From: Girardia tigrina
Lineage: Eukaryota
Length of the DNA: 64,000 nucleotides
NCBI GenBank assembly: GCA_001938485.1
Contig: MQRK01234846.1
Location: forward strand, 1 to 64,000
Direction of reading: 5' to 3'
Every line of letters starts with the position of its first letter. Position 1 is the stretch's first letter. This document shows positions 11,771 to 63,634 of this stretch, in pieces. Under the pieces are notes generated by a model. The model was not told the DNA's origin. It did not search any database and worked only from the letters and a program-made list of their open reading frames with translations. The position numbers were made by a program, and so were the translations under genes.

Positions 11771-11980
11771 ATGGAAGGTCTGCGAAAAATGAAATCGTTT
11801 CTTTCATTCGGAAAAGCGGATAGAAAAAAGATCAGGTGATAGTTAATTCACGAAATTAATAATGAGGTATTTCGTTATTGAAGATTGAATGTTGTTATCG
11901 ATAATCCGGAAAATACAATTGGAAAACAATTTTCAGTGAGAATTGCTTTAAAAGAGAATTTAGGCGATCTTCGCCTTCAA
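11771..11980 (+). CDS. RBCK1: HOIL-1L/RBCK1-like copy 2, exons 1-2 (11771-11835, 11884-11980): start and first half of UBL
   Basis: MEGLRKMKSFLSFGKADRKKIR|LNVVIDNPENTIGKQFSVRIALKENLGDLRLQ aligns by eye to the HOIL-1L UBL start (IRLWVSVED...TVASLK). 48-nt intron; phases consistent. Confidence 0.7.
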
Positions 11981-12270
11981 GTAACACGAAGAAAATAAAT
12001 TCATTTGTGTTTGGAAATTCTTTCGTATTTTATTCGTTTAGAAAAGTTTTTGGAAATTATTTTTTGTGTGCAATTTTTATCAGTATTAAAAAATTGAAAT
12101 TATTAAATCTAAATCACTGCAGTTTTTTCTTTAATGACTCGGGAAATAAATTTTATTTTTTTTATTTATATTTAGCTATATTTATTTATACGTTTTATAT
12201 ATTTTCAATTATCCTTTTTTTTAATATTTATTTTTACTTTTTATGTTTTTTTATTTATACTTTTTATATA

Positions 12271-13326
12271 TTAGGGGTACCCAAATGTTATGTCGTTTTT
12301 TATTGATTTTTAGAAACAAAAATAAAACCATATAAAACATTTATTTAATCAGAAAAATAGTCCCCATCGCAATCGATGANNNNNNNNNNNNNNNNNNNNN
12401 NNNNNNNNNNNNNNNNNNNNNNNNNNNNNNNNNNNNNNNNNNNNNNNNNNNNNNNNNNNNNNNNNNNNNNNNNNNNNNNNNNNNNNNNNNNNNNNNNNNN
12501 NNNNNNNNNNNNNNNNNNNNNNNNNNNNNNNNNNNNNNNNNNNNNNNNNNNNNNNNNNNNNNNNNNNNNNNNNNNNNNNNNNNNNNNNNNNNNNNNNNNN
12601 NNNNNNNNNNNNNNNNNNNNNNNNNNNNNNNNNNNNNNNNNNNNNNNNNNNNNNNNNNNNNNNNNNNNNNNNNNNNNNNNNNNNNNNNNNNNNNNNNNNN
12701 NNNNNNNNNNNNNNNNNNNNNNNNNNNNNNNNNNNNNNNNNNNNNNNNNNNNNNNNNNNNNNNNNNNNNNNNNNNNNNNNNNNNNNNNNNNNNNNNNNNN
12801 NNNNNNNNNNNNNNNNNNNNNNNNNNNNNNNNNNNNNNNNNNNNNNNNNNNNNNNNNNNNNNNNNNNNNNNNNNNNNNNNNNNNNNNNNNNNNNNNNNNN
12901 NNNNNNNNNNNNNNNNNNNNNNNNNNNNNNNNNNNNNNNNNNNNNNNNNNNNNNNNNNNNNNNNNNNNNNNNNNNNNNNNNNNNNNNNNNNNNNNNNNNN
13001 NNNNNNNNNNNNNNNNNNNNNNNNNNNNNNNNNNNNNNNNNNNNNNNNNNNNNNNNNNNNNNNNNNNNNNNNNNNNNNNNNNNNNNNTTGCCTTTAAACC
13101 GCGGTCAAATTGAAAAAGTATACAATGACGCAAATGTGACTCATCCAATTTGTCTATTTCATCAATAAAATCATATGACATTTTATCTAAAAATAGGCAC
13201 AAATCAGAGTTAATACACTAACTGAAATTAATAAATAAAAATGGTAGAGTCAAAATAATGTAGGCGGCAGTTAAAAGATTTAGAAAAATATATCAAAAAA
13301 ACGACATAACATTTGGGTACCCCTAA
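12271..13326 (-). mobile_element. Mariner element, interior in an N gap
   Basis: TIRs ttaggggtacccaaatgttatgtcgttttt at both ends, TA TSD. ORF ends HLRHCILFQFDRGLKA ... IDCDGDYFSD*. Confidence 0.9.
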
Positions 13327-13739
13327 TATATTATTTTTAATTCTTTTATATTTTTTTAATATTTTTATTTGTACCTTTTTAATCTTTTCATTTATACTTT
13401 TTAATATTTGTATTTAAATTTTTTTTATTTATTTCCATTATGCAGTTAAGAGTAACTGTGCAATATTATTAGTTGGATAATCTTTTATTTCGTAATTTCT
13501 CAACTTTAATAATACATTTTTGTAATGTTAACTCACGAACTGATGAATTTGTGATGATACAGTCCTTAGCAAAAAAGTATCCTAAATCGGAAGTTATCGG
13601 TGAAAATCTGTTTAAAATAGACAATCTGAAAATAAATAACCAATCAAAAAATCTTTTAAAAAGATATTAAAAATAAGTCATTTATGAATAGTTGTTCGGA
13701 ATTTAAATTCCAATAATTATTATTATACCTTCTGTTGAC

Positions 13740-14060
13740 CAGCCGCTAATTAGAACGTTCAAAGAAAGGCCTTTCGATGAACATCGTCATTCCAACAAAC
13801 AAGGGCAAACATATGTCTTTCACAATGACAAAAGACCTGAAAGGTCCCCTGCTATTCAAATTACACGGTGACAGTGGGGATCTCGCCAAGTATCAATCGT
13901 TTATAAACGATTTATCAAGTATTTTGCCTGGAACACAGCATCATTTAATTCAGGATAATGCGAGAATACATTTCAATATTTCAACCACTATTGAAATGGT
14001 AAATTTGCACTCTTCTTGTCCACCCTCAATCCAAGGGAGACATTTTTCCGAAAAATGAAG
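13740..14060 (+). mobile_element. IS630/Tc1-like transposase fragment
   Basis: ORF 13777-14058 contains FINDL...HHLIQDNARIH. Confidence 0.55.
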
Positions 14061-14314
14061 CGGAACATCAGGACAGAAAAAAATCATTCAGGTCTTCTGC
14101 CACTTAGTCATCACTAAAGACTTTGTTTTGCATGAGAACATCGAAGCTGTAGCGGAAAAGACTACAAAGATACGATAAATTACAATCATCATTCAAAGAA
14201 ATTCTTTGCTGCCTGCCTTGTTAAGAATGGTGTTCACCTTTTTTTATCTTTAATTCAAAAATTTAAAGGAGACCTAAAAGTCCTCACACATGTAAAATAA
14301 AAATAAGTTATAGC

Positions 14315-14975
14315 TGTAAATAGCGTTGCCACTTTCATTATTATCACATTCTAAAGTCATAATTTAACACCACAAAAATTTATATTCACAATTCGTATAC
14401 TTAAACAAATTTCTTGTTACTTCAATTATTTCGCCCAAAATTAGTTCATTAAATTCTTTCGATTAAATTTTGAAAATATACAAAAATTTAAATCTTAAAT
14501 AATCTTATATTTTTTACAAAAATTTTACAATATTTTGATCTTAAATAATCTTATATTTTTTACAAAAATTTTACAATATTTTGATCTTAAATAATCTTAT
14601 ATTTTTTTACAAAAAATTTTACAATATTTAAATCTTAATTAATCTTATATGTTTTACAAAAAATTTACAAATTTTTAATGTAACCAAATTTTACATTCTT
14701 ATGAAACTTAATCATAAAACTAATTAATTTAAATTTACAATAACCATTTTATTAAAAAATTATTTCTGAGAATATTAATCCGTTAATTAAAATTTATTTA
14801 GCTTATTCTATAACTTTTATTAAAATATGTTAATTGTTATTACTGTAAACATATTTTAAATAAGTATTTTTTTATCATATTTTTACTCTACATTGTAATT
14901 GTTAATTTATTTCTTTTAAATTTTCAAATTAAAAAAATAAACTATTTTGGCGAAACTTAAAACTAACCCCTCATA
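14315..14975 (-). mobile_element. Solo LTR, TA...CA family, copy B, with internal ~45-bp tandem repeats
   Basis: tgtaaatagcg...aactaacccctcata, 5-bp TSD atagc (14310-14314 / 14976-14980). Confidence 0.85.
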
Positions 14976-15470
14976 ATAGCCAGGATACCATATATTTTAT
15001 CAACTTTTTGTTTTATAGTAAAACTAATATTTCAAATTCTTTTGTTTTATGTAACATGTTAAGTGTTTAGCTCAAAAAAGAAACAAATTTCTTATCGGCT
15101 GAAGCAAGTCTTTGAGTTATAACATCATTTAGTAAAGAGTTTTTAAAAAAACGTAAAATATAATATAATTATTTGGTGATTTTTCAGTTTGTATCCTTTT
15201 CGTTCTTTGCGTTTCTCTATTTGCTTTCCTTCAGTCAGATAGACAAACATTTACTGTTTTAATCTTTCCCATTTTGAGGAAATAACTTTAATTATTATAT
15301 TGATAAAATAATAACAAAATAAACAATATTTTTGTTGAAAAATGAAAAATGATGAAATATAAATTTAATTGAAAAAGTGAAAAAGTAATTTTATGATAAA
15401 TTCTTTTTTGGACCTTTGAGAATACGAAAGAATATCCATTGTTTGCAATAAATAATTGAAATACGAATAG

Positions 15471-15757
15471 ATACCGGAAATAAAAAAATTCAAAGGAAAC
15501 TGTTTGGTTTGGTTTATCAATAATCAGTTCTGGAAAGATGAGACCAAACTGGGTCAGCTGGTGTCAGAATCAGATACTAAGCAACCATTTGAGGTCCATC
15601 TGATCGGTATTTCTAAGAAAGATATGCCCAATATTCAATATGGAAATCGTAAATCAGTTTTCACTATTTTTCAATTATTGAATTTTTTATTTTTATTTAT
15701 TTAATAGTTTCAAAACTACAACCAAAAAGTGATTCTATCGATAAATTCGGAAATGAT
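15471..15757 (+). CDS. RBCK1: HOIL-1L-like copy 2, exons 3-4 (15471-15648, 15708-15757): second half of UBL and linker
   Basis: IPEIKKFKGNCLVWFINNQFWKDETKLGQLV... resembles HOIL-1L QQWVIGQRLARDQETL. 59-nt intron; phases 0/1/0 fit the neighbouring exons. Confidence 0.72.
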
Positions 15758-16867
15758 GTAATTCTTTTTATTTAAACTTAATTTGTAATTGAGCGAATTT
15801 TTGTTATCCAAAAACTATAAGTATATCAATATTTAAATTGATAGATAAGAATAATAATTATAACATAAGCAAAATGTCATTTTATTATTGTTGTCCAGAC
15901 AGTCTCTTAGTTTGATTCCGCTCCAGACCACTTCATTGTTGTGATCATTTCTGGTTGAAGATACCGTTCAGTAGTCGGCCTGTCCTCTCCCGCTTCTCCC
16001 GATCACACTTAGACAGTAGGGGCACGCCGTTTCTGCAGGTTTCGGAAAGTGTGCTGATTCGAAGGATTAAAATAAGATAATGTGACCAAGTGTCGGCCGA
16101 AATCCGAAACGAAAACGAATTTTGAGTGGGTGATAAAACGCCATTTATTTCGAAAAGGAACAACAAACATCATTGTTTATTAACATTTATTAATTTTCAA
16201 ATTTGCACTTTTTTATCGTGACACTTTTTATGCGTTTAAACTAGCGTTTTTATTTTGTTGGGTATTACAATTAAAGTCTCGTTTTATTTTTTAATTTATA
16301 ATCAACTACTAATCTGACTCCAAATAAACAAAAGGTTTCTTCCAACAATAATATATGAAGAATGAACAAGACCTTTAAATAATAATTTATTCTGCAAACC
16401 ACAATTGAAGTACAAATATAAATTCAACTTTTTCAGATACACTTCGATTCAAAGATCAAACTTCGATTAAACAGTTACAACAACTTTTTAGTTCCAGCGA
16501 TGCTAAAAATGATTTATTTATAACTTAACTTCTCCTTTACAGGATACTTGAATATTTCTTAATATTAACAAAAATCTAATTTACCGTACATTCAGGTTTA
16601 AATCTTTGAGTAATAATTTGTGTGAATTGTAACTGAAATAACTATTGCTTATATACTAATTTTTCCTAACCTTGAAAATTGAATAACTAAAACAATTCTC
16701 AAAATATTTATAAATTTTATTGAAATACTTTTATAATAATCAAAAAAATTATGAATTTTAACCAGCGAATTATTTTAATTTTTTTTATTAGATTTAAAAA
16801 TTAAATTTATATTTTTTCGGAACCCCAAACAATTTTCGCAATTTTCATTAATTTTTATCACACAATA

Positions 16868-17739
16868 CTGTTGGTGTCAATTAAATATATCAAATCGGAC
16901 AATTAGATGTATAACTTAATGTATTTATTTATTTGCGTCAAGAATCAACCAATCAAATCGCATATACTACATGCCTATTTAGCCGAATTCGGACAATTAA
17001 GCATACAATCTGACAATTAAGATGTATAATTTATTATAGAAGTTGTATGCAACAACGTTTTCAAACATACATAATTACACACAAACATACATGTAGACAA
17101 GAGCTAAAACACACATACACATTTGGACATTTAAATATATAATTGGACATTTAAGATTGTGTGTATTGTGAATAAATTTTTAATAAAATTTTCATATTGT
17201 TAGGAACGACATTGGTCGCATAAATGTCTCCTGTTTCTTCAGACATTCAAATAACAAAAGAGATAAGCTTGGATCCAAATAATTTATTTATCGACAACTT
17301 TTTGAATTACCCACAAAATTTCTGTTTATTTAAACAACTGAATTTATTTGAGGATATTTTAGTATTTCTATTTTTTAACCGTTTCTTATAAATATGGATA
17401 TGGATATAGATATATATATTTAATAATATCAATAATTATTTAAATGTTGAGAATTAAAATATCTTATAAATTATACTTACAAATCTTACACATATTATAA
17501 AATTTCTTGAGGCATTTAATCATAACGTTGCCAAAACGACAGGAAAAATAATTTTTTTCCGAAAAAGGCTTTTTAATATTGCCTAAAGGTAATCTTAGAT
17601 TTTGAATCGTTTGATTCGGCTAAATAGGCATGTAGTATATGCGATTTGATTGGTTGATTCTTGACGTAAATAAATAAATACATTAAGTTATATATTTAAT
17701 TTAATTGTCCGATTTGATATATTTAATTGACAACAACAG
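16868..17739. mobile_element. TA-flanked MITE with about 120-bp TIRs (Tc1/mariner type)
   Basis: ctgttggtgtcaattaaatatatcaaatcggac...tagccgaat is inverted at about 17614-17739; TA on both sides. Confidence 0.85.
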
Positions 17740-17741
17740 TA

Positions 17742-18958
17742 TTTTTATGTTTTTTTATTTCTGTTTCAATTATTGGAGCACCACATCACCCCCCGCCGAA
17801 GAATGCATAGCATGGTATGTGTGTCCGTCCGGCTGGTTTAGGAGGCTGGCAGTGTCAGGGGGTCCATTTAACGAAATGCAGCTGAGCTGTGTTGTGCGAT
17901 GTATTGTTAATATTGTTGTGTATGTCAGTTAGAGCTGTGGCATATGATAGTGAGCTGTCTGTTGTTGTTATGTTATGAAGGTGCAAGTTATTGTTCTGTG
18001 TGCTACTTGGCGTTGTTGCCAAAGCGTGTTGGGCGGACGATGGTTCATTGAGATAGGCGTCTTGTTGTCCTACCTTTGTTGGGAGGCGGTTGTGTGTTCT
18101 TTTCGTTGGAGTAATTGTTGTCCGCCTGTGACTTGGTTTCATCCTGGGTAATATGCTCCAATTGTCGGTAGGCCTTGAGCTTGCAGATATTCACAGTGAG
18201 CCCTTGACGTGGGCCAAAATTTTGACTGGGTTGTTGTTGAATGCGATGTTTAGAAACTTGTGTCGTTTGGTGTAGTTATCTTCTAGAGAGGTTGCGGTTT
18301 CTTTTTGGAGTCAGACAAACTTTGCGGTTGCAAGTTCTTTCGGAACAAAGATGTACTGTCCCCCAGGATTGGGTGTGGTTCTGTCGGCTTGCAGAAAGTG
18401 GTCGTGTGCTACTGTGAGCATCTCGTTCTTTGGTGCCTCATTACAAAAGAGGTTGTTGTTGAACGAGGTATTTGTCCTGAAGAGCAATTGGGCAGGCTAG
18501 GTACCATATCTGCTATGAGGAATGTTTCTCCAGTCTAACAAAATGATTGGCAGCTGTTTCGCCCAGTCGTGTGAACGTGCTACCCGAACGGTTTTTTTAT
18601 TAGGGTGCGGTGAAACCGTTCTATAAGACCGTTAGTTTGCGGGTGGTACGTGGGGATCCTGATTTTATGTATACCAAACTATTTGGTGAGTTCCCTGAAT
18701 AACTCCGACTCAAATTGCTGTCCTTTTGGGGATGCTGAATCGTGAAATACTGTGATTCACGAATATCTCAATGATTATGTCGGTTGGCAGTGTTCTGATC
18801 GGGAAGGCTTCGGCCCACCTAGTATTCTTGTCAAGAATGGTGAGGATTTACCTGTAGCCATGTGACGCTGGAAGTGGCCCAACGATGTCCATGTGCACCT
18901 TGTCAAACCGACTGCCGGAGGGATACGTCAAAGAGGGCGGCTTAGTGTGCTTTGTAAC
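17742..18958 (-). mobile_element. Ty3/gypsy integrase relic with long 3' region, PPT and LTR start
   Basis: VTKHTKPP..RFDKVHMDIVGPLP..LTILDKNTRWAEAFP..YHPQTNGLIERFHRTL; PPT at 17786-17800. Truncated by the element starting at 18959. Confidence 0.85.
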
Positions 18959-20662
18959 TGTAACAACGAATCACAAATCTATTAAAATATATTTTTCACT
19001 AACAAATACTTTAAAATAGACATTATTTAAACAAATAATTATCCATATTTTTTCATGTTAAATATTTCATTTGAGAAATAAATTTAACATGTAACACTCC
19101 CCCCATATTCTTCATCACAAGAATCTATATCTACTACATACTCGTTCAAATATTTCGGTTTTCGTCTTTCTCTTTGGGGTCTGTTGCTGATTCCCGATTC
19201 ACTTTGCTTAACACTCGGAACTGATTCGTTGTTATTTTCCAACATGTAATCCGAGTAAAAGTTTCTCGGCAGGTCTGGTTGTCTTGGTCGAATATCTGCT
19301 ATATACCGTGGACCGCAAAAACCATCACAATTTATTAAGTACTTTCTTTGATCCAATTTTCTAACGACAACGCCTCTTGTCCATTGCTTTGTACATGGCA
19401 TATTATTTTCAGGCTTTACCCAGACTAACTGTTGCTCTGCGAAGTCTGCCTTTACCTTATTGTAAACCGGATCCTTTTCAATTCTTTCGATTATCTCCAA
19501 ACCGACTGGAATGTACTTGTAAAGTCCTGAACTAGGTGTCTCCTTTCCGTCGGACGGTGTATTGTTATACCACCATAAGGCTTCCATGATACTGATATTC
19601 GATCGAGACGCAATTCTCTTGATTGTCTTATGATTTCTCTCTATTNNNNNNNNNNNNNNNNNNNNNNNNNNNNNNNNNNNNNNNNNNNNNNNNNNAATTC
19701 TCTTGATTGTCTTATGATTTCTCTCTATTATTCCGTTGCAATTTGGTCGATTAATAGCGCGGTATAGGACATGTACATTCCATTTTTCCATCAACTTGCT
19801 GAATTCGGCTGAATAAAATGTATAATTGTCAATAATCAACTCCTTTGGAGATCCACGCTCGCAGAACAAATTTGAAAACTCTGTAATAATCGACTTGACA
19901 TCCTCAGCTTTGATTAGTTTCCATACTGCAAATCGAGAGGGTCCACAATCAATGATACTTAAGAATTTTTGTTGATCAAATTTTGTGACATCCGCTNNNN
20001 NNNNNNNNNNNNNNNNNNNNNNNNNNNNNNNNNNNNNNNNNNNNNNTTGTTGATCAAATTTTGTGACATCCGCTGCAAGTCTTGTCCAGTTTTCATTAAC
20101 AGCTAATTTTCCAGTTTCCCATTTTATTGTTGCCGGATCAATAGATTGACAACTTTGACACTTCGAGATCAAATCCTTTATATCCGTATTTGACACATTT
20201 ATTTCCAGCTTATCGCACTGATATCGCATTCTCTTTGCACCTAAATGACATCTGTCATGAAGTTTCTGTAGTTTGAATATGTCATCTGTTACAGACAAAA
20301 GGCAACTGCTTCGTTTTAATTGTTTGGGTATTCTTGTCAGTTCATCAGCCTTGTTGTCTTCACTATTAACAAACTCAATTTTCAAAGTTATTTCGTATTC
20401 CTGGCATAACTCCTTAATCATTGACATTCGGCGCTTTATCAAAAGCTCGGAAGAGGCTTTCGTGTGTAATTTATTTCGGTCTGATAGTGCCTCAGTTATC
20501 CAAGAAACAACTGATTTGTTATCTGATTTTACTACAACATTCGTTAGTCCCCATTTAATACACAGATTTAGACCATTTACAACTGCTTCGAGTTCTGCTA
20601 CGTTTATGTGCCTAGAATCATCAGTTTTCCTTAACCACGATGCGTCTTCTATAATATTTCCT

Positions 20663-21786
20663 GGAGCGGAGAATTGCCAATTTGACCGAACATTTATTTT
20701 TGCCAGTTTCAAGGAAAGTGTATAATTAAATTAAATAATTAAATTAATAATTAATAACTAAATAAATTAATTAAATGATTAAATATAAAAATAAAATAAA
20801 TAAATTAAATTAATTAAATGTAAAATAAAAAGTCAAAATAAAATTAATATTTGGATTTCCTTTCATGCTTTTAAACCCATTTTAATTTGTTTTCTTTCAA
20901 TCAATTTCAATCGATTGATAACTGTCGACGGATTAGTTTTTTTAGTTTTGGTGATGCGTCTTTGTTCGTGAATGATTCAAGTATTCATATTTGATTGTGT
21001 AATTTTGAACTGTCGAAACCGATATAATTGAACAAATGGTGAGCCTCATTTTTATGTATGAATGCTGTGTGAATGTCTGGATTGCGTGTGTGTATAAATG
21101 AAATTGGGATTGGTTTGAATGTGTTAGCGTGTTTGTGTGTTTAATGATAATGTGAATGCGATTGGTTAAGTGTGTGTGTGGTGTGTAATTTGTTTTTAAA
21201 AATGAAATTTTGTCAGAATTAAAAAAAAATGGTGGTTTGAAAATTTCAATTTAAAAAAAATTGTTGAATAAAAAAATTGAAAAATCGGATATTGCCTTTA
21301 TTTTGTTTTGCAAAAAAATTGACGGCAAAGTGAACCTAAAATCAAATTTAAATTAATCGAAAAGTGATAAAGAAACGAAAGTTTATAGAGCTAAATTAGC
21401 TGAACAGGCTGAAAGATATGATGAAAATGGTTGATGCGATGAGAGATGTCGCTAAAATGACCGGCGAATTGAACATGATAGAGCGTAACTTATTATCCGT
21501 AGCATATAAAAACGTAATCGGAAGTCTGAGAGCGTCGTGGAGGATGATGAGTAGCATCGAACAAAAAGATCCTTCTCGACTTCCATTGATTAAAGCCTAC
21601 CGAAGTAAAATTGAAAGAGAATTGAAAGAAGTCTGCGCTGATATAATAGCCTTACTCGATGAGTTCTTGTTGGACCCTTCAAATGGCGGTGAAGCTAAAG
21701 TGCTCTTCTTAAAAATGAAAGGCGATTATTACCGTTTTCTGTCCACCTCTCTTCCTACAAAATCGTGGAGACACGGATTCCTGTCC
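20663..21786. mobile_element. 1.1-kb insertion in the RNase H of LTR copy 1, carrying a 14-3-3 fragment
   Basis: Absent from copy 2 (uninterrupted ataatatttcctttaac near 56263-56279). 7-bp TSD atttcct (20656-20662 / 21787-21793). GGA...TCC ends. Confidence 0.85.
21363..21744 (+). pseudogene. 14-3-3 protein, N-terminal half (frameshifted, truncated)
   Basis: VYRAKLAEQAERYDE/MV..ERNLLSVAYKNVIG..RASWR..KMKGDYYRFL. +1 frameshift near 21426; homology ends after DYYRFL. Confidence 0.93.
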
Positions 21787-23992
21787 ATTTCCTTTAACTT
21801 CCAATGCTGCCCCAATGGCTATCGAACTGGCATCACACCATATGATGCCGTCTTTACAATCATCAATACTCCATATTCCTCTACAAGGATCTTCCTCCTT
21901 AACTTTTTTCAAAACAAATTTGATTTTTTCCAATAATTCGACATCTATTTTTTCATCCCATTTTCCTTCACTAAGCCTTTTCATGTAGTAGCATGATGGA
22001 CGTAACCAACCAGCAACAGGGTGGATTCCTACTAATTGGCCACACATTGAATATAACTCGCGACGCGATATTGATTCGGCAACTATCTCGTCCTTGAAAT
22101 TATTATCTCTCATCCATCTCACTGAATTCTTATCTTTAAAGACTTTAACTCTCAACACTCATACATCTTTATCCATTGAGAGATTTTCTGGTTTTTTGCA
22201 TTTAAGACTAAATTTCTCGAACAACATTCTAATTTCGTCAACTGTGATTGTAGTTTCGTCAACGTAAATGCCATCGATGTACGAGTTGGTGTTTTCACGT
22301 ACTCTAGGATCAGAATTTAAAATCCACTTTACAATTTCAGTCATAATCGTCGGAGTGATATTTAAATCAAAGCCATCCTGGTTAGAGCGTACTTTTTTCC
22401 ATTAATGACACATGATTGATAACGCCACATTTCCTTGTGGACGCGAATCTGCATATACGCCTCTGATAAATCAAGCATGGAAAATCTTGATTCTTTTCGC
22501 CGCCAGGTACGAAGTTTTTCCAAACATATATCTGCTGAGTCACTGTACACGTCTACATAATTGTTCAATTTCCTAAAATCAAAGATCGGTCTTATCTTGG
22601 ATTTGTTAACTTGCAATATTCCAAATATGGGTATAGATCCTATCGATTTACCCATTTCCTTCACGTCATAATCGATTAAATAGCCCTTCTTCATCCACTC
22701 CTCAAGGATTTTCATTGTGGTTATGTCTTTCGATTTGTCATCCTTAAAGGTCGAATATCGAATTGGTAGATAAATCGGCGCTTCATCTTTCCACTTCCAT
22801 TTAACTGTCCAATTATCCTTAAATTCAATCTCATAATTGTGTTTGTTCAGGCTAACTCTTGGCACAACACCCGTGACACAACTCATATTGTCACCAGCCT
22901 TCTTTTGTCCTTCTCCTACACACACCAAATTCGATAACACCCTTATTAATTTTCACACCCCCAAGTTCACTTATAACATCCATACCAATTAAAATTCCCA
23001 AATCCTAGGGTAAGTATTTCATGACAGAACATTCTACTTTCTATTGTCTATAGTCAATTCCACGTCACTAATCCCTACACATATATCATCGCCATTAGCC
23101 AAAACAATTCTTTGCTCATTTGACTGTAACGAGTTTCCCTTGATCAACCCTTTCAAAACAACAGTTTTTGAGCAACCTGAATCNNNNNNNNNNNNNNNNN
23201 NNNNNNNNNNNNNNNNNNNNNNNNNNNNNNNNNNNNNNNNNNNNNNNNNNNNNNNNNNNNNNNNNNNNNNNNNNNNNNNNNNNNNNNNNNNNNNNNNNNN
23301 NNNNNNNNNNNNNNNNNNNNNNNNNNNNNNNNNNNNNNNNNNNTTATTTGTCCATTAGATTGCCGCTGAGAATTTTCATAACGGTTTACCCTTGTTTGTA
23401 CCAGATTTCCGTCATGTGGCACACGGGGTTTTGTAAAGGAACTCCTTCTATCGCCGCTGACCGCACCTCGTTCTTTAGAAACGATATTTCCATCACCAAC
23501 GTTTTGTACCGCTGACATTGAACTTTGTGTGACGCATTTTTTAATTCCTAAATACCTACGACTATATTCAACCATTTCGGTTAAATCTTGATCTCCGACC
23601 TGCTCNNNNNNNNNNNNNNNNNNNNNNNNNNNNNNNNNNNNNNNNNNNNNNNNNNNNNNNNNNNNNNNNNNNNNNNNNNNNNNNNNNNNNNNNNNNNNNN
23701 NTCCTTCGTAATATTTCAAATTAATCAGTTGGCTGTACGCAGATCGTCTGGTTAATCCGAATGAATTGTTCAAGATTTGCAGTACTTCTTCACAGTTGCT
23801 CTGTTTCTTTTCATCCAATTTCATGTATATATTTAACGGAACATCAGTCAACAAAAAAGGAAGATATTGGGCCGGATCCAAAATCCCATGGATTTTCATA
23901 ATCATCTTGAACTTTTTCTTCCAAATTTCAAAACTGCCGTTTCCATTAAATTTCTCCAAATGATCGGTATAATTTTTAAATCGCTTATCATT

Positions 23993-24004
23993 GCCCGGAT
24001 AGCT
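23993..24004 (-). promoter_or_regulatory. Putative primer-binding site AGCTATCCGGGC, complementary to nt 1-12 of tRNA-Lys(UUU)
   Basis: Directly abuts the 5' LTR end (..TTACA). Identical in copy 2 (59089-59100). The + strand reads GCCCGGATAGCT, the conserved 5' end of metazoan tRNA-Lys(UUU) as I recall it. Confidence 0.65.
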
Positions 24005-24047
24005 TGTAACAACGAATCACAAATCTATTAAAATATATATATTAAAA

Positions 24048-24086
24048 TAACCTTAACCCTAACCTAACCTAACCCTAACCTAAACT
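24048..24086. repeat. Short TAACC/TAACCC telomere-like tract
   Basis: taaccttaaccctaacctaacctaaccctaacctaaact. Confidence 0.7.
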
Positions 24087-24099
24087 ATACCATAGATAT

Positions 24100-24530
24100 G
24101 AATTGACCCTACTGACGCATCCATCTTCTCATCATCATATTCGACTAAATACCCATTTTTTATCCACTTGGTTAGAATCTCCATTGTTGATTTGTCTTTC
24201 GACTTTGACTCCTTCAAAACTGTATTTCTCCTCGACAAGTACTCAGGCGCATGAGATTTCCAGCTCTAGGAACAGCCCACACTTTATCGATTACGTCATT
24301 ACCAATAACACATCCTCCACGTCAAACACAACGGTACACGTGCCTACTGGCACCCGCAACCCGTTGGCTAACGTAACGTTATCCTGCTGCTGCTGTATCG
24401 ATGCTTCATCCACAAGACTTTTTCCATTCAATCTTTTCACGACCGAACGAGAGCATCCGGTATCCACTAAAGCTTTTCCCGTTCACAACGCATCGAATCA
24501 CCGGAAGCGCTTTAAATCCCCCCGAGAAGC
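24100..24530 (-). mobile_element. Retrotransposon aspartic protease relic
   Basis: Minus strand LPVIRCVVNG../ALVDTGCSRSVV..VTLANG. Confidence 0.7.
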
Positions 24531-24621
24531 CGTAATTAAAATTATTTATAGTACAAATTTTAATATAATAACAGAATTATAATTATTGACTTAAATGTTT
24601 TGAATAATCAATTCGTTTCAG

Positions 24622-24704
24622 GATTTGCTTTGTTCAAACTGTGAGAAACATTGTGCTATCGACGAAATAATTACTATAAGTCTCTGTAATCACCAATTTT
24701 GCAA
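24622..24704 (+). CDS. RBCK1: HOIL-1L-like copy 2, exon 5: first half of the extra RING finger
   Basis: tttcag|DLLCSNCEKHCAIDEIITISLCNHQFCK|gtaat, phase 0 to 2. Confidence 0.85.
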
Positions 24705-25769
24705 GTAATAATAATAATTATTATTATTATCACAATAATAAACAATAATCACTCTTTTAAATAACCATTATTATTGAAATTTGTTATTGCATTATAATAA
24801 ATACATAAGATTGAATAATTTTGACTTAATTCGAACGGAAAACATAATCGAATTTATCTACTGGAAAGATGAAATGATGTCGCTATAGAAAGAGAAAGTT
24901 TATTGTATATATTAATAAAATTTCAGTTAGTAATGAATGATCCGATGTCTTGATCATATAGTTTTGTCGATAGTATCTATCATTTTATTTCTGCAATCAT
25001 TTTTAAAAAACTTATTCACTAATTTCTTTTTACTGAAATTATATGAATGAGTCTTATTTAAATATTACTTGGAGAATAGTAATCTTGAACTTTATTCAAC
25101 TGAGATAAATTCATAAGGAAAGAAATAAATTTAAATATTCCTAGAAATAAGTCCATGAGAAACGTTGAAACAGAGATTTAAAAATTAAATAAAAAATTTC
25201 ACAACAAATTAATGTAATAGAATGAAATACATTTCAACTTTACTGAAAAATTTTAATAAATTTATAACAATAATAAATCCGTTCGATTTTGACTGACAAG
25301 ATTAATTACATTCAGTAAATATTCGATATTTTAGTAACTGAAAGGTTTTTAATGTTTGACAAAATGTATATAACTTAAATATTTATTAAATTTTTATGAA
25401 ATAACTTACGTCATATATTTCTAGAATACAATCAGTACATAAGGAAAATAATTACAATAACTACAAAATAGTGGCGTATTTATAACTTTTATGAAGAGTA
25501 ATTAAAAAATTTACCTTTGAAGCCTCATTGAAATTCAATAATCGAGGACAAGTGTTTATTAGATTTATTAGGTAAACTTTTCGTATGGTTGGTCTAATCA
25601 ATTATATTTTGTAACCTACAATACAATTTATAGTTGGTACTCGACGGATATTTCCGGAGTTTAATTTCGGGAATTAAAATTTAATAAAATATAAGTAATC
25701 CGTTTTTAAAAGAAAAAAATATTATTTAAAACAAAAGTAAAAAGTCGACATTTTCATAACAAATTTTTA

Positions 25770-26000
25770 TTTTTATTGGCAATTAATTTCAACTGTATAA
25801 CCGTCATCGTCAGGTCATCAAGAAAATATGAATTTAAATTGCTTATACATGCAAACAGTGATTATGCAATCATTATCAAAACACTCTCAATAAGGTGGTC
25901 TTAGGATTAATCTTAAGATATAAAGATCTAATATATAATGCTTCACACGTAATTCTCTTCCAATAATCATTAAAACGAGCGCAGAAAATTTTGAAGTTAT
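25770..26000 (-). mobile_element. Penelope-like 3' fragment: GIY-YIG tail and hammerhead-like motif
   Basis: NFKIFCARFNDYWKRITCEALYIRSLYLKINPK, homologous to 3200-3300. CTGACGA..GAAA core at 25777-25819. Confidence 0.75.
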
Positions 26001-26727
26001 TTAGTTTATTGTTGAAGTTGCTGTTTGATGTGCCTGGGATATGTTCCGGGCATCTCGTGGAACGAGCTGAGTGGTTGTGTGCTGAAATATGACACGGGAA
26101 GATACGCTCGTCGATCGATAAAGTTTACCATGTTTTGGTGGCGTTCGTACGTTCGAAGGTTTGCCAACACACCCGTCCCCACCGTGATCCAGACGAAGAA
26201 AGATCGTGGCTCAGTCGTTGTTCCCCTTGACGAGTCGATTCGAATTTATTAATTTTCAACACAGCAATTACAAAAATTTATTTTATACAACAACTCATTT
26301 TTAAAGGATTTTTCTTGATTTCTTTTGGGCAAAGTCTTCAATTCCTTTGTTCATTGTACATATACTAACTATATCGTGTTATTATCAATAAGTCATAAAA
26401 TTTAAAACATTAAAATCATTTTTCTTTAAGACCTTCAAATTATCACTGATTTTTATCCACTGTTGACCGGCAATTTTACACTAAATCTATCTCATTTCAC
26501 CTGCTATTATTTGTTTATAATAAAAGGGACATGTCTAAATACAATGAAAAAAGTTTTTGCAGTATTCTTTATTGATCTGGGTTTCATAAATTGAAGTTGC
26601 TAAAGCAAGTGTAAGCATGAGTTAACTCGTGATTGGTCAACAATATGTAGAGTACTGATTATTAAATAACTTAAATATCATTTTATGACAGATTATGTAA
26701 TTTTTTAATTTTATCTATGTTGTATAG

Positions 26728-26827
26728 GAACTGCGTTTCAGAACACATTTTGAATTTTTTAAAAAATGGTTTCAAATGTCCAAATAAAGATTGTCTAAGA
26801 ATTTTGTGTGATCACGAAATACAATTA
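26728..26827 (+). CDS. RBCK1: HOIL-1L-like copy 2, exon 6: second half of the extra RING
   Basis: tatag|NCVSEHILNFLKNGFKCPNKDCLRILCDHEIQL|gtaag; 100 nt, phase 2 to 0. Confidence 0.85.
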
Positions 26828-27250
26828 GTAAGACATGATTTGTTTTTAAAAAAATTGAAGATATTTATTAAAATATTAAAAAGTTTATTATTATTAAATT
26901 TAATTATTGTAAAATAATTATAATTTTTATCAATGGTTCTAAACTTAAAATATATAAATTTTTTTATTCAAATTTTAATAAATAAATTAATATTTCATAA
27001 TTTGAGCCTTATGTATCTGTATCTACTATTTTTTGCTATTTTAATGTTTATATTAGGTTGTAAGATTTTTTGTTCATGTTTGTTAACTAAACGTTTGGAA
27101 AATTTCTGTTATGAATTGCAGTCAAAGATTTAATAAAACATTTAGATCCTACATGCAATAATGTTATCCGTTAGATACACAAAGAACCAAGCTAATTGGA
27201 TTAATAATAATAAAATTATCATTTAAATAGAATATAGGACAATTAATAAT

Positions 27251-50173: not shown

Positions 50174-50431
50174 GCACTAGATAAACAAGAGTATCATAAT
50201 TTCCAAACATGTATTTTGCAAGAAATTCAAATTAATAAAGAATTTGTTTGTCCAAAAGTTGGATGGATTTGTGGATCGTGTACTCTTATAAATGAGCACT
50301 ATTTGAAAATATGCAAATGTTGTAGTTCCGATCGCCCTAATAATTTTAAAATTCCAGAATATTGGCAACTAACTAATGATGAAAAAAAACTTTTGAAAGA
50401 ATATGAAGAAATGGAAAGATTGGACAAAGAG
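50174..50431 (+). CDS. RBCK1: HOIL-1L-like copy 2, exon 7: post-RING linker fused to the NZF (RanBP2-type) finger and NZF tail
   Basis: ALDKQEYHNFQTCILQEIQINKEFVCPKVGWICGSCTLINEHYLKICKCCSSDRPNNFKIPEYWQLTNDEKKLL; compare HOIL-1L VGWQCPGCTFIN..C..C..RPEAYQVP. Phase 0 to 0. Confidence 0.9.
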
Positions 50432-52018: not shown

Positions 52019-53315
52019 TTGGGTTGAGGAATAAGTTTTTTGATAAATTAAAATTTTATTTTTTAACAAAAAAGTTACTACAAATTAATCACAAATATAA
52101 TATCCGCCATTGTTCACGACTTCTTCCCAACGTTCAACGAGTTTTTCAATGCCTCTTTGGTAGAAATCGCCCGGTCTTGACTCGAAGAATTCAGCCAACC
52201 AAACTTGCAGTTCTCCATCATTGTTGAACGAAACACCACGCAAAGTGTTAGAAAGCGAACGGAAAAGATGAAAATCAGATGGAGCCAAGTCAGGTGAATA
52301 CGGAGGGTGCGGTAACACTTCCCAACCAAGCGTTTGAATGGTTTCTTTTGTCATTCTGACAATATGACGACGTGCATTGTCGTGTTGCAAAATAACGCCA
52401 TGTTGTCGATCCGGATGTTTTTGTCTTATAGCGGCGTTTAGTCTGTGCAGCTGTTGAACATAAAGTTCTGCGTTCACTGTTTGGTTTCGAGGAAGGAATT
52501 CATAATGAATAATCCCTTCCCAACCCCACTAAACGCATAGCATTGTCTTTCGTGGGTGAAGATCCTGTTTTGCTCACGGTGTCGATTGTTCTTCTCGGCT
52601 ACGCCATTTTTTGCGCTATTTCATGTTGACGTACAGGCACCATTTTTCATCACCCGTTACAATTCGATAAAGAAATTGTTGCTTAAGACCGTGAGTAGAG
52701 CGATGACGGGCAACAAACTCGCCGAAATTGTGGATCGCTGGTTTTTGTTGTTTTCGGTCAAAAGATGTGGGACCCAAGCTCCCATTTTTTGAACTTTTCC
52801 CATTGATTTCAGGTGGTTCACGACAGTTTTTTGATCACAATCCATTTGTTCCGCCAATTCTCGAGTGGTTTGACGCGCGTCTTCATGCAAAATTTTGTTC
52901 AAACGCTCTTCATCGAATTCATTTGGTCGTCCTGAACGAGGTGCATCCTTGAGGTCAAAATTGCCAATTTTAAATTTTGCGAACCAATCACGAGCGGTTC
53001 TATCAGCTCTAGCACCTTCTCCGTATACAGCACAAAGCTCTCGGACAGCGTCTGCGGCTTTGGCGCCTCGATTATACGCAAACAATAGATGGTATCGGAA
53101 ATGCTCATTTTTGTCGACTTGACACTCCATTTCAATGGTCTAAAAATCGACAAAAATTAATCTGAATAAAAAAACAAAATACACCATTTTTTAGAGCAAA
53201 ACAATAGCTTTCAAATAACATATAACATTACATCAAAAAATTTGATTTAAATATTAAATTGATTAAAAATTGATTAAAAATTCAAAAAACGACGGGAACG
53301 TATTCCTCAACCTAA
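52019..53315 (-). mobile_element. Full-length mariner (DD34D), transposase 52085-53130 frameshifted
   Basis: TIRs ttgggttgaggaata / tattcctcaacctaa with TA TSD; WVPHLL, DEKW, QHDNARRH, HPPYSPDLAPSDF. Confidence 0.96.
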
Positions 53316-58338: not shown

Positions 58339-58375
<37 letters not shown>

Positions 58376-59137: not shown

Positions 59138-59869
59138 ATAGATTTTACATCGCAACAAAAAATACTGACAAGAGGAATTTGCTTTTTTTGCATTAATCAC
59201 GTAAATTTGGTTAAGTAACAAAGGAGTTATCCAAATGAAATTAGACCAAGTGTTATGTAATGCTTTATTAAAAATAAAGATTCAACTGGAAACATTTTCT
59301 CATTGTTAAACATTAAAAGTCGCTCGGCATCTCCTTCCGAAGTTTCATAAACAGTATTTGATTTATGGACATATTTATTATCTTCAAAATCAAAGTTGCA
59401 ATCTCGATACTTATGTCCACATACAGTTACAAATTTGATCACGTTTCTATTATTAACCATTTGTGATGAGAAGTCGTTGGAAAGATTTTGATTCATTATA
59501 ATTTTTTCATTCAAATTTGTTTATTTTTAAATCTTTTGATTACATATTATTAACAACATTAATATGACTTCGAACATTTATTAATATCACAAGTATAATT
59601 GTTATTACAATTATTCAAACCACTTTCACTATTCGACATTTTTTCTTGATTCATAATTTTCTGTCTCATCCTAGTTTTTTGAAAGTAAATTGGAAAATAA
59701 TTATAATATTAAATAATTATCAAAACTCTCATAGGTTAAAATCATATCTAAACATTATACCAATTAAATTAAAATTTTAAATTAAAAAATTAAATATTAT
59801 ATTTGAAAATCTAAATATTGCATTTGAAAAATATTTTCAAATAGTTATTATTAAATTATGAAGACTATT

Positions 59870-60420
59870 TATTTAATAAACCCATCCATCCATTTCTGAA
59901 CTCGAAACTCTTTTCATTTTGAAGACATAAAAGCTGTCTGTAAATGCCTGACATGTTCATAAAATTTAAGTGCCTTTAGTTTTATTAAATAACTAGTTAT
60001 TGAAAATTTTTTTACTCAAATCTTCAATCCAAATTTAAGAGCTTTTTTGATCTTTTCTAATAAATTGTTTATCGAGCATGAATATAGTTTGGATTCCAAA
60101 CTTTGGAATTCAACTGAATCCCGACAATAACAGATTTTCTTATTGTAACTTCTTTAGTTTTCATCGCTCATATCGTTGTTTCACCTAAGTTAATTTATTT
60201 ACCAACGCTTGTTGATCGTTCTCTTTTTCTAAGCAATCTAAAACTTCAATTTCCATTTCCAACGTAATCGCCTTTCGTTGCTTTTTATTTTTCTTTATTA
60301 TAGTTAATTATTTTCTAAATAATATTTATTCAAACAAATTAAAACTTTTTTAAAAATTTTAAAATTTTTGAACAAATTATCCGCATAAAAACAGACCGCA
60401 TAAAAGGAGGACCAAGTGTA
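59870..60420 (-). mobile_element. Tigger/pogo-like 5' fragment (CENP-B-type HTH)
   Basis: KQRKAITLEMEIEVLD..; TIR-like tacacttggtcctccttttatgcgg. Confidence 0.65.
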
Positions 60421-61257
60421 GTGTAGATGATCAAATAAAGATCATTAATCGAAATTTGCAAAATAGTCGCTGAACGTTTTCCAAAATATTTAGGTGCCCA
60501 TTACATAATGCTTTGGTTGAATGTCACTCATAACTAGAATGACTAGTGCTCAGGGTCTTTGCATGAATGTCGGGAGAGCCAGTAGATGTGGGAAGGAAAA
60601 TAACATATTACATTTCACCTATTTCATTTCATATCAGTGGGGGATATAAATTTATAATATAAGAATTCATGGGCACTCTGTAGATAAAAGTATAAAGTAA
60701 TGTAACAACGTTCAAATCCTCTGTAACACTTAAAGATTACTACTTGAAGAAGTAGTTTACTTGTCAACAACTGACGTTGCAACTTGATGTTGTTACTTAC
60801 GTGAGCAGCATATAAAAAAATTTCTTAGCAAGAAAATTTTCGTTATAGCAAATGTTCAGGAAGATTTGATTAATCTGCATTTTAATGTGACATCTCAAAT
60901 GATGAGTGCGTTAGATAATATATAAAATATATATGATTAAATTTAATTGTTAGGAAGAATATTATTATTATTAAATTAATATTTAAAATTACAATCATTC
61001 AAATAAATATTAATTTATATAAAATTGATTAAATGTGGTTCCAATTATTTCATTATTAATTCTCGAATTTTTGTATTTGTTTTAATTATCAAATATATTT
61101 TGTGAAACGAATTCATTGGGTAATTCTACATAAAAACTAACATAAATTTTAAATAGTTACGGGTTATTTACATTTTAGTTATCTAATAAAATTTGAAAAC
61201 TCTTTTTAATAATTACTCACTTATATAAAACAATTAAAAATTCTTAAATTTTCGTAG

Positions 61258-61427
61258 AACAAATTAAAAGAAGCCGAAGAGAAAGAAAAAAATTTACAAA
61301 AGTTAAGAAATTTGATCAAAAATCCAATAATATGGTCAGTCGATGAAACAAAATGTCCTGTTTGTGAAGATGTTTTTGATCCAGGAAAGACAGTAATTCT
61401 TCACAGTTGTCATCACACAATTTGCGT
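61258..61427 (+). CDS. RBCK1: HOIL-1L-like copy 2, exon 8: linker and first half of RING1
   Basis: NKLKEAEEKEKNLQKLRNLIKNPIIWSVDETKCPVCEDVFDPGKTVILHSCHHTICV; compare HOIL-1L [25 protein letters not shown]. Phase 0 to 2. Confidence 0.92.
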
Positions 61428-61559
61428 GTAATTATTAATTTATTTATCAGTTATTTTTATCTAGAACATGTTTTAAAACTGATAATTTTATTTGAGATTA
61501 AAAATTTCATTATTTTATTTTTAGTCATTTTATTTATATTCAATAAGTCTCATTAAATA

Positions 61560-62420
61560 GTGATGAAGATTTTTTGTCGACGAATCTAGAGTTGATGTCA
61601 AAGATGGTTCATGAGATTTGAATTGGAATTAAAACAAACAGAATGTGTTAACTACAACAAAAAGGTAAGAGTTCTTGAATAACATCAACTGAAAAAATAT
61701 GTGGAAGCAAGCCCATCAAATACAAGTTAAAGATTTATTGGAATCTGTGTAATGTCGAGAGGTTTTCTCGTTAGGTGGTCAATTAAGGGTTATTTATCTA
61801 TTTGTAAAGTATATTTGGCTAACGTGTTCTTCATTCCTTAAAGGATTGACAGTGAGGATTGGAATATGATGATCGACGAGTTCATAACTTGTAACGTAAA
61901 AGAGGTTCTTCACAAAGGTAAAATGAATGATCCTTGTAATGTTATATGGAATATAAGGGAACGTAGAGTTTGCACGCTTTGATGTGATTTAAGTTACATA
62001 GCGATGACGGTTTTATTGGAAGTCGATGTTACATCTATTTAACGAAATATAATGGAAAAAGTAATTTATGTTAATTGACTGCAAACCATCGAGACTCGTA
62101 GTTTGGAGCGAAATTCTAGATGAATATGAGGTTCTATTACTAAAGCAGTAAATTCAATATTTTTTTAACTGGAAGTTTCTAGTGAATTGATATTAGACAA
62201 TTTTAATACATTTCACACTAAGGATTTTGTTGATCTGACACTTGCTTTGTGGCAGATAGCATTGATATATCGTGCCAGCAACCAACCAAATGGTAACTTT
62301 ATTGTAGAAAGAAGCAATCAAGCAATTAAGAGAATCACAATGACATAGTTATGGTGGTGCAATAATACATCAGTAGAAAATAAAGAACTGATTTGTTGAA
62401 TGTTATACAATTATAAGTGT
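61560..62420 (+). mobile_element. Old relic of the same atypical LTR lineage as copies 1 and 2
   Basis: REVFSLGGQL..WLTCSSFLKR and VKMNDPC..IWN match RRELYSMCGQL..WLRPSCYYMKR and VKEEDPCRGIWS; integrase IVERSNQAIKRI..LWWCNNT. Confidence 0.7.
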
Positions 62421-63000
62421 AACCATTTTACTTTTCGAAGCACTTCTTTTGAATAAGTTATCCAGATGCCTGAAAAAGTGGTAGTCGGTGGATAGAAGGT
62501 CTATTGATTTTGGGGGATCAAGCAGAGTCTTATAGCCAAATTCGTTCAACTTTTCTTGTTCTGAGATATGTGGTCGAGCATTATCATGAAGAAGAATTGA
62601 AGCTTGTGGTATATTTCATCGACTTTTTGACAGGACTTTACTGTCATAATCGCCTCACCCGAATTCAGGAAGCTGTGTTCGATGAAACCAGTTGATTGAT
62701 CAACTCTGAACTCTTCAAGCGGCCAAACAGTTTCGCATGGATGGGCCTCCACCAACACCTTGAATTGGTTAATTTCAATCGCCGATGGGCGGCTACAACT
62801 AGGTTTACGTTCAGAACTGGTATTGCTAGAGCAAAACTTTTGGTACCAGCGCTGCACTGAGCATTCGTTTAAGCTTCCTTAGCTCCATACTTCATTGTTG
62901 TTTCTGGCTGTTTGAGCTGCATTAGACCATAGCTAGAATATGTAGAAGCAAATATAGCCAAATCAGGCATATAATATATTGTAATCTCTACTTATTTTAA
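62420..63000 (-). mobile_element. Internally deleted mariner relic
   Basis: NAAQTARN..VQRWYQKFCS..SRPSAIE; 3' remnant GI.ITYSK..VLRK.NGY. Confidence 0.75.
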
Positions 63001-63230
63001 TATTTTATTTAAGGTCAACTTGTAATTTTTTATTAGAAATCTTAAAAGCATAAAGTAACGGTGTAATACATTTATTGATTGTGTTTAATGGCAGAAGTTT
63101 TTTATGCCATTGCAATTGTTTTTGCAGTGGACCATTTTTATTTAAGTGTTTTATATTTTTTAGATTTTAAAAATATTAGATTATTTCGATAAATTTAAAT
63201 AACCTTTTACTGAGTATTTACATTTTTTAG

Positions 63231-63634
63231 AGATTGTTTAAAAGAATATTTGAAAAATGTAGAGGATGCACAAGTAAAATGTCCAACAGCAGATTGTGTA
63301 GGCTTTGTTGAAGATCAAGAAATAAGAACTGTCAGATTTTTTTTAATTTTCACTATTTTAATAGCAATTCTAGATTCTTTCAGAAGAAGAATATGCAAGA
63401 TATGAGGAATTGAGTCTAAGGATGGCAGAAGCTAGAGATAAACAATCATTTCACTGTAAAGAAGTTAATTGTGCTGCTTGGATAGTCATTGAAGGAAATG
63501 TGAAGAATTTTAAATGTGTTCGATGTAAAAAGGAAAATTGTATACCGTGCGAAGCGATCCACGAAGGAAAAAGCTGTAGTGATTATCAAAGAAGTCGGGA
63601 AAATAAGTCAGATAACAATGAATCATTTATTGAG
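63231..63634 (+). CDS. RBCK1: HOIL-1L-like copy 2, exons 9-10 (63231-63330, 63374-63634): second half of RING1 and IBR; gene continues past the window
   Basis: DCLKEYLKNVEDAQVKCPTADCVGFVEDQEIRT|ILSEEEYARYEELSLRMAEARDKQSFHCKEVNCAAW..FKCVRCKKENCIPCEAIHEGKSCSDYQ; 43-nt intron. Confidence 0.94.

What the first reader, a model, noticed from the sequence alone, without database searches (positions are those of the whole stretch)
11771..63634. HOIL-1L-like ligase with an extra RING: UBL-RING-NZF-RING1-IBR
Seen: ten exons splice in phase without stops. A complete C3HC4 RING (exons 24622-24704 and 26728-26827) lies between the UBL and NZF. It is split by a phase-2 intron at the same position as the true RING1, and both second-half exons are exactly 100 nt (26728-26827 vs 63231-63330). 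The next exon starts like a RING1-IBR linker (ALDKQEYHNF..FVCPK vs ILSEEEYARY..FHCKE) but runs straight into the NZF (VGWIC). Established: HOIL-1L is LTM-UBL-NZF-RING1-IBR-RING2. Inference: an internal duplication or fusion of tandem paralogues gave a second potential E2-binding RING, an architecture I do not recognise.
Basis: partly seen in the sequence, partly recalled or inferred. Interest (0 to 1): 0.72.

Follow-up and report, generated by a model that had tools for sequence, protein, structure and literature searches.

The report
HOIL-1 paralogue with duplicated RING1
This animal gene is a diverged copy of the ubiquitin ligase HOIL-1 that carries a second, conserved copy of its RING1 zinc finger, which has lost a key enzyme-docking residue and so likely serves as a binding or regulatory module rather than a second docking site.

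Summary
Ten GT-AG exons give an open 454-aa frame: UBL, extra RING, NZF, RING1, IBR. Spliced contigs in 2 of 4 runs join the UBL exons to the extra RING. The extra RING is a RING1 copy: same ligand spacing and introns, with its linker fused to the NZF in a chimeric exon 7. A 68%-identical paralogue, probably in tandem, has the same layout, and the copy is under purifying selection (dN/dS about 0.23). A canonical HOIL-1 lies elsewhere in the genome and is sister to the pair. 'Second E2 site' is weakened: both copies have Asn at V284, which HOIL-1 needs for E2~Ub discharge. Both matching RING2 exons keep C460 and H510 but lack E471 and N508. Extra RING1s recur in invertebrate HOIL-1-like proteins (28 of 257), but RING-before-NZF was seen in 0 of 280. 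No transcript was seen for the joints 24704>26728, 26827>50174 or 50431>61258. Verdict: real, a new variant of HOIL-1; moderate interest.

The parts
11771..11835 (+). Exon 1: ATG (in-frame stop three codons upstream), short basic leader; no LTM
   Evidence: joint to exon 2 in spliced contigs of X7, X9
11884..11980 (+). Exon 2: first part of the ubiquitin-like (UBL) domain
   Evidence: 18.6 bits, 0 of 500 shuffles; both joints seen
15471..15648 (+). Exon 3: second part of the UBL
   Evidence: 63% identical exon in the paralogue on C239329
15708..15757 (+). Exon 4: 50-nt linker, phases 1 to 0 like the canonical NZF exon (likely its shortened remnant)
   Evidence: joint 15757>24622 seen
24622..24704 (+). 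Exon 5: first half of the extra RING (RING1 copy), six ligands; Asn at the V284-equivalent position
   Evidence: paralogue exon C239329:30814-30896
26728..26827 (+). Exon 6: second half of the RING1 copy (100 nt)
   Evidence: 82% identical exon at C248727:3183-3281
50174..50431 (+). Exon 7: chimeric; about 26 codons of RING1-IBR linker up to the first IBR Cys position, then NZF and helix
   Evidence: profile alignments; RanBP zinc finger lead, 0.90; paralogues at 55% and 35%
61258..61427 (+). Exon 8: NZF-RING1 helix and first half of the true RING1 (V284 kept)
63231..63330 (+). Exon 9: second half of RING1 (100 nt)
63374..63634 (+). Exon 10: RING1-IBR linker and IBR; GT donor, gene continues off the contig (likely RING2 exons on C232753)
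   Evidence: PF01485 over cut-off
4267..4410 (+). RING2 exon of a HOIL-1-type gene, likely the 3' end of the upstream tandem paralogue (body on C239329 and C248727)
4452..4535 (+). Terminal exon with the HOIL-1 Cys-rich tail ending in Cys-His and stop; same upstream paralogue

Best explanation
The gene encodes a HOIL-1-derived RBR protein with the order UBL, RING1 copy, NZF, RING1, IBR and likely an off-contig RING2, in which the true RING1 likely docks E2~ubiquitin for transfer to the RING2 cysteine, while the extra RING is predicted to be a folded but E2-blind module that likely binds partners or regulates the ligase. Shown: exons, reading frame, the UBL-to-RING splice, homology to RING1, conservation in a paralogue, and Asn at V284. 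Inferred origin: after HOIL-1 duplicated in this lineage, the block from the NZF exon to the start of the IBR exon was doubled (within the gene or by unequal exchange between paralogues). That fused an IBR-exon start to an NZF-exon end (exon 7), and the upstream NZF and helix were then trimmed away (short exons 4 and 5). The whole gene later duplicated, probably in tandem. Inferred mechanism: two-step RBR transfer as in HOIL-1, with substrate discharge probably slower or of altered specificity because E471 and N508 are replaced; the RING1 copy has no IBR or RING2 of its own and cannot complete an RBR cycle.
For: Frame and splice sites. Spliced joints up to the extra RING in 2 of 4 runs; bin depths fit cover of exons 3-6 at the same contig depth (X7 observed 62.6, 20.5, 36.4 against 62.4, 21.9, 27.9 expected). 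The RING1-linker profile aligns unbroken over residues 131-217, across the exon 6/7 joint. The paralogue has the same order, with a gap-free 7570-nt GT-AG intron between its exon 6 and exon 7 equivalents and a short intron between its NZF and RING1 exons. No hidden IBR, RING2 or UBL exon in that intron or in the window's. dN/dS of the copy about 0.23 over 61 codons, 39 of 61 residues identical. Exon phases 1-0, 0-2, 2-0, 0- repeat those of canonical HOIL-1 on C241071. V284 position: Asn in both copies; Ile/Val in 186 of 192 last RING1s and Asn in 0 of 31 other extra RING1s. V284A abolishes E2-Ub discharge in HOIL-1 (PMC9834252, passage). Both RING2 exons of the pair keep C460, the Cys tail and H510.
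Against: No transcript was seen for 24704>26728, 26827>50174 or 50431>61258; the window's 23,346-nt intron 6 holds 844 N. The donor of the copy is unresolved (very long branch; AU p = 0.49). Which RING2 exon belongs to which paralogue is inferred from contig ends. E471 and N508 are both replaced, and the double mutant of HOIL-1 lost activity in one assay (PMC10575588 section 9). The rest of the copy's E2 face (zinc ligands, central helix, P324) is intact, so weak or different E2 binding is not excluded. No binding or structure was tested; dN/dS rests on 61 codons.
Confidence: 0.55

Rival explanations
1. The protein is a poorly active or dead ligase that acts mainly as a scaffold or ubiquitin-pathway adaptor; the extra RING is part of a drift toward binding functions.
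For: E471 is Met and N508 is Tyr in both RING2/tail sets of the pair; both are changed in only 9 of 161 database homologues. The E471A/N508A mutant of HOIL-1 lost its activity read-out (PMC10575588 section 9). The NZF has TL/TC for the TF motif and lacks the arginine of the HOIL-1 NZF that most homologues keep.
Against: C460, H510 and all zinc ligands are kept. RING2 is the best-conserved part between the paralogues (43 of 48 identical, dN/dS about 0.15). V284 is kept in the true RING1.
Confidence: 0.2
2. The extra RING is a second working E2 dock: it recruits another E2 or raises local E2~Ub to feed the single RING2.
For: All eight zinc ligands, the spacing, the central helix and P324 are kept, under purifying selection. 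The second half, which holds the E2-facing helix, is 27 of 33 identical between the paralogues.
Against: Asn replaces V284 in both copies (PMC9834252 passage). No IBR or RING2 is attached to position an open E2~Ub, and the NZF and a long helix lie between the copy and the catalytic core.
Confidence: 0.15
3. The model joins two transcription units, or exons 5-6 are minor or skipped: a short UBL-RING gene lies upstream of an NZF-RBR gene.
For: The 23-kb joint 26827>50174 was not seen in any transcript here, and the intron has three assembly gaps.
Against: Exon 6 ends at a GT donor in frame, without a stop. Exon 7 starts at an AG in phase 0 with the linker that continues the RING. The paralogue has the same joint across a gap-free intron without hidden exons. 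15757>24622 is spliced in two studies.
Confidence: 0.1

Closest known systems
HOIL-1L / RBCK1 (LTM-UBL-NZF-RING1-IBR-RING2; PDB 8EAZ, 7YUI)
   Same: UBL, NZF plus helix, RING1, IBR and the HOIL-1-type RING2 with Cys-rich tail and terminal His. The pair groups with this genome's canonical HOIL-1, whose IBR-RING2 matches 8EAZ at E 2e-52.
   Different: Extra RING1 copy between UBL and NZF; no LTM; four residues (not eight) in RING1 zinc loop II; NZF lacks the TF motif and the arginine; W462, E471 and N508 replaced.
Invertebrate HOIL-1-like proteins with repeated RING1 or RING1-IBR units (Culex XP_039438340, Polistes XP_015177005, Parasteatoda XP_071039680, ticks, Allacma; names)
   Same: One or more extra RING1 units upstream of a HOIL-1-type RBR; 28 of 257 fetched proteins; at least 9 changes of the trait on a 61-row tree.
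   Different: None of 280 has a RING1 in front of an NZF; they lack a detectable NZF and often keep the IBR in the copy; none has Asn at V284 (0 of 31 extra RINGs). They do not group with this pair.
Parkin (UBL-RING0-RING1-IBR-RING2)
   Same: An extra zinc module between the UBL and the RBR; parkin's RING0 blocks the catalytic Cys (PMC3940038, passages), a precedent for a regulatory role.
   Different: Parkin RING0 has a double NZF-like fold (same paper), not a RING1 fold. Here the module is a true RING1 copy followed by an NZF, so the likeness is positional only.

Membership tests
RBR E3 ligase | RING1-IBR-RING2 in order | tested here: met
   RING1 and IBR in the window. RING2 exons of the same subfamily at window 4267-4535 and C232753; assignment of the C232753 exons to this gene is inferred.
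RBR E3 ligase | Catalytic Cys in RING2 | tested here: met
   C460-equivalent present in both RING2 exons.
RBR E3 ligase | Thioester formation and ubiquitin transfer | not testable with these tools
   Needs biochemistry.
HOIL-1L/RBCK1 | RBR core groups with HOIL-1; Cys-rich tail with terminal His | tested here: met
   (sister to canonical HOIL-1 C241071, SH-aLRT 99; the tree held HOIL-1 homologues only, no other RBR subfamily); tail motif.
HOIL-1L/RBCK1 | UBL domain | tested here: met
   18.6 bits on a HOIL-1 UBL profile, 0 of 500 shuffles; diverged, Pfam silent on single exons.
HOIL-1L/RBCK1 | NZF (W-x-C-x2-C-x3-N-x6-C-x2-C) | tested here: met
   Consensus (PMC3940038 passage) matched; 50 bits on a HOIL-1 NZF profile.
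HOIL-1L/RBCK1 | NZF ubiquitin-binding TF motif and the arginine (linear-chain role of the arginine recalled) | tested here: not met
   TL and TC; arginine replaced in both paralogues, also in the canonical gene of this genome.
HOIL-1L/RBCK1 | LTM upstream of the UBL | tested here: not met
   Only about 20 residues precede the UBL, in-frame stop upstream of the ATG; no Pfam match.
HOIL-1L/RBCK1 | Catalytic residues C460, H510, E471, N508 | tested here: not met
   C460 and H510 kept; E471 is Met and N508 is Tyr.
LUBAC subunit | HOIP partner present and bound through the UBL | tested here: inconclusive
   PF18091 and PF16678 gave no match in the genome; exon-wise searches in a fragmented assembly cannot show absence.
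E2-binding RING1 (for the extra RING) | C3HC4 ligands with RING1 spacing and linker | tested here: met
E2-binding RING1 (for the extra RING) | Hydrophobic residue at V284 | tested here: not met
   Asn in both paralogues; Ile/Val in 186 of 192 last RING1s.
Parkin RING0 | Double NZF-like fold | tested here: not met
   The module aligns to RING1 along its length; fold not predicted, judged from sequence.

The most novel reading that the evidence does not exclude
Invertebrate HOIL-1 paralogues have repeatedly doubled their RING1 and rewired the RING2 active site. In this pair the E2-blind RING1 copy has become a built-in regulator or substrate adaptor of an LTM-less, LUBAC-independent ligase with chemistry different from HOIL-1: an independently invented functional analogue of parkin's RING0, made from a real RING.
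Probability: 0.18. Interest if true: 0.7.

Novelty: new variant of a known kind. Interest (0 to 1): 0.42.

Why it matters
RBR ligases are described with one RING1 for one E2. This is a natural, selected case of a second RING1 that lost a key E2 contact, beside a canonical HOIL-1 in the same genome as a built-in control. That makes it testable what RING1 does besides binding E2, and whether a HOIL-1 core without E471/N508 still ubiquitylates hydroxyl groups or sugars. The survey also shows that repeated RING1 units recur in invertebrate HOIL-1-like proteins, which seven literature searches did not find described. That recurrence is also why the single case is only moderately surprising.

Tried and rejected
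Run search: no RNA holder listed on record (kinds are guesses). Runs X1 and X5 showed none of the gene's joints among the 15 printed rows, and X5 had no depth in the bins of exons 1-6 although it holds words of 63200-63700; a part without cover proves nothing. No read evidence was obtained for the joints of exon 7. Word-index protein searches with exon 7 and exon 10 found nothing. The HMMER search of 1.84 billion representatives gave no full-length member of this subfamily; the closest by identity is an unnamed 153-aa fragment, P0123, at 55%. The spliced protein could therefore not be folded, and no structure or complex job was run. Pfam on single exons missed UBL, NZF and the extra RING. A first, loose UBL profile gave no significant score; the tight one did. 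The canonical gene's UBL exon was read in a wrong frame; corrected it scores 14 bits. Tree placement of the copy next to the pair's own RING1 (99/99) was not accepted: branch length 4.3 and AU p = 0.49 against the expanded family (L042 left out there as a long branch). A link between extra RING1 and loss of E471+N508 (8 of 16 against 1 of 136 database proteins) was not supported by independent pairs (p = 0.5, 4 pairs). HOIP searches were uninformative. The two copies being alleles was rejected: 272 of 398 residues identical, dS about 0.5. A retro-copy origin of the extra RING was rejected: it keeps the phase-2 intron. Earlier scan findings: none. Literature searches (listings only) showed no paper on this architecture. 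The library lacks most subscription papers, including RBR-evolution surveys that I recall, and no supplements were read.
Full report
Observation. The window is contig C234846 of a fragmented, AT-rich 1.43-Gb genome; the organism was not identified, and all named relatives are animal proteins. Profiles built from fetched HOIL-1 homologues place a UBL at about residues 21-89 (18.6 bits; 0 of 500 shuffles), a RING1-plus-linker match at 131-217 (29-31 bits; 0 of 500 Cys/His-fixed shuffles), an NZF with helix at 218-278 (50 bits), RING1 at 301-400 (93 bits) and an IBR (PF01485 over cut-off). The extra RING and RING1 have the same ligand spacing, the same phase-2 intron and 100-nt second halves.

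Transcripts. Four runs were laid on 11700-27200. Contigs of X7 and X9, from two studies, skip exactly 11836-11883, 11981-15470 and 15758-24621 with GT..AG ends, each at one contig depth (141.6 and 30); X1 and X5 show none of these among the 15 of 35 joints printed. The runs are not on record as RNA, but the joints are spliced forms. Bin depths fit cover of exons 3-6 at that depth, a rough inference; the exon 6 bin also holds repeats.

A second copy and a canonical gene. Searches of the own genome found a paralogue whose exons 3-5 lie on C239329 and exons 6-10 on C248727, in the same order and with the same extra RING. Its intron between the RING second half and the NZF exon is 7570 nt, GT-AG, without N. 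No IBR, RING2 or UBL exon hides there or in the window's 23-kb intron, which does hold 844 N. Two RING2-plus-tail exon pairs of this subfamily exist: window 4267-4535 and C232753 (43 of 48 residues identical). The end of C248727 and the start of the window match consecutive parts of one repeat in the same orientation. The simplest order is therefore C239329, C248727, window, C232753: a tandem pair, with 4267-4535 ending the upstream gene (inference). A third gene, on C241071, has UBL, NZF, RING1, IBR and RING2 without the extra RING and matches HOIL-1 structures at E 2e-52. On a tree of RBR cores (61 rows: all 16 complete database proteins with extra RINGs, 42 others of which 38 drawn at random, 3 own) the pair is sister to it (SH-aLRT 99).

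Selection. Between the paralogues the extra RING has 39 of 61 residues identical, dN 0.21, dS 0.92, ratio about 0.23; over all 398 compared codons the ratio is 0.37, RING1 0.57, RING2 0.15 (Nei-Gojobori, small samples). All eight ligands are kept in both. It is a maintained domain, not debris.

Origin. In the canonical gene the exons after the UBL run phase 1-0 (NZF, 290 nt), 0-2 (182 nt), 2-0 (100 nt), then the IBR exon. Window exons 4, 5, 6 have phases 1-0, 0-2, 2-0 at 50, 83 and 100 nt, and exon 7 begins like an IBR exon and continues as an NZF exon. That is what doubling the block from NZF to the IBR start, followed by trimming of the first NZF, would give (inference). The donor is not resolved. 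The genome holds an expanded HOIL-1-like family (98 IBR and 37 RING2 matches), and 12 of 18 family loci scanned carry the same 100-nt exon. The copy is 10-11 of 33 identical to the pair's RING1 second halves and 8-14 of 33 to the family's. The tree puts it beside the pair's RING1 on a very long branch, and the AU test does not reject the family as donor (p = 0.49).

Mechanism. HOIL-1 RING1 binds UbcH7 through its central helix and V284, and V284A abolishes discharge (PMC9834252, passages); numbering was mapped through 8EAZ and a rodent homologue. The true RING1s have Val or Ile there; both copies have Asn, against Ile/Val in 186 of 192 last RING1s and no Asn in 31 other extra RING1s. Residues of the RING1 ubiquitin-binding face (V296, E299, L301; PMC10575588, passages) are also changed in the copy, and it lacks the IBR and preceding helix that complete that site. 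I therefore read the copy as a folded module that likely does not dock E2 productively and likely serves partner binding or regulation; parkin's RING0, a different fold, is the positional precedent (PMC3940038, passages). RING2 keeps C460, H510 and the Cys tail, but W462, E471 and N508 are replaced. Both E471 and N508 are changed in 9 of 161 homologues, and the double mutant lost activity in HOIL-1 (PMC10575588, section 9), so discharge may be altered or weak. There is no LTM, the NZF ubiquitin motif is degenerate, and HOIP could be neither found nor excluded; LUBAC membership is doubtful but untested.

Comparison and novelty. Among 257 fetched homologues (both lists favour proteins with repeated domains, and many are fragments), 28 have more than one RING1: mosquito, wasp, spider, scorpion, ticks, a springtail and unnamed proteins (names). 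The trait changes at least 9 times on the tree. None of 280 has a RING1 before an NZF, by motif or by profile. Seven literature searches (listings and abstract starts only) showed no description of either; the library lacks most subscription journals. This is a new arrangement of a known ligase family, and one instance of a recurrent, apparently little-described kind of duplication.

Verdict. Observation confirmed; interpretation partly supported. New variant of a known kind; interest 0.42. It works like a HOIL-1-type RBR (inferred). It descends from HOIL-1 but fails three features of canonical HOIL-1L (LTM, NZF ubiquitin motif, E471/N508), so it is filed as a derived paralogue, not as HOIL-1L itself.

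Noticed in passing
window 4267-4535: RING2 and terminal exons of a HOIL-1-type gene upstream of the finding's first exon; likely the end of the tandem paralogue.
   Followed up: yes
window 20656-21786 (14-3-3 match from 21400): An intronless 14-3-3 fragment (PF00244, E 6e-37) sits in a 1131-nt piece inside a high-copy repeat in intron 4; contigs of 4 of 4 runs skip exactly this piece (20655>21787), so other copies of the repeat lack it. It looks like a captured retro-fragment.
   Followed up: partly
L008:916-1920 (-), L009:1267-1776 (+); similar frames in L005, L007, L010: Multi-copy intronless chimeric frames that join an RRM piece, half a RING1 plus IBR of a HOIL-1-like gene and, in some, an SMC N-terminal piece. 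Many of the 98 IBR matches in the genome may be such captured gene fragments.
   Followed up: partly
L024-L043 (contigs C205881, C226465, C215205, C228284, C243532, C179125 and others): An expanded family of intron-bearing HOIL-1-like RBR genes (37 RING2 matches) with no NZF hit in the stretches fetched. Several have Asn after the catalytic Cys; their RING1s form a clade apart from the canonical gene.
   Followed up: partly
P0002-P0008, P0012, P0121 (ticks, spider, unnamed), P0122 (Culex), P0149 (Polistes), P0219: HOIL-1-like proteins with arrays of RING1 and IBR units, up to three RING1s or five IBRs; 8 of 16 with a complete RING2 also lack E471 and N508.
   Followed up: partly
window 52088-53139 (-): Mariner-type transposase (HTH_48 and Transposase_1) split over several frames in intron 7; retrotransposon-like frames fill introns 4, 6 and 7 (recognised by eye).
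   Followed up: no
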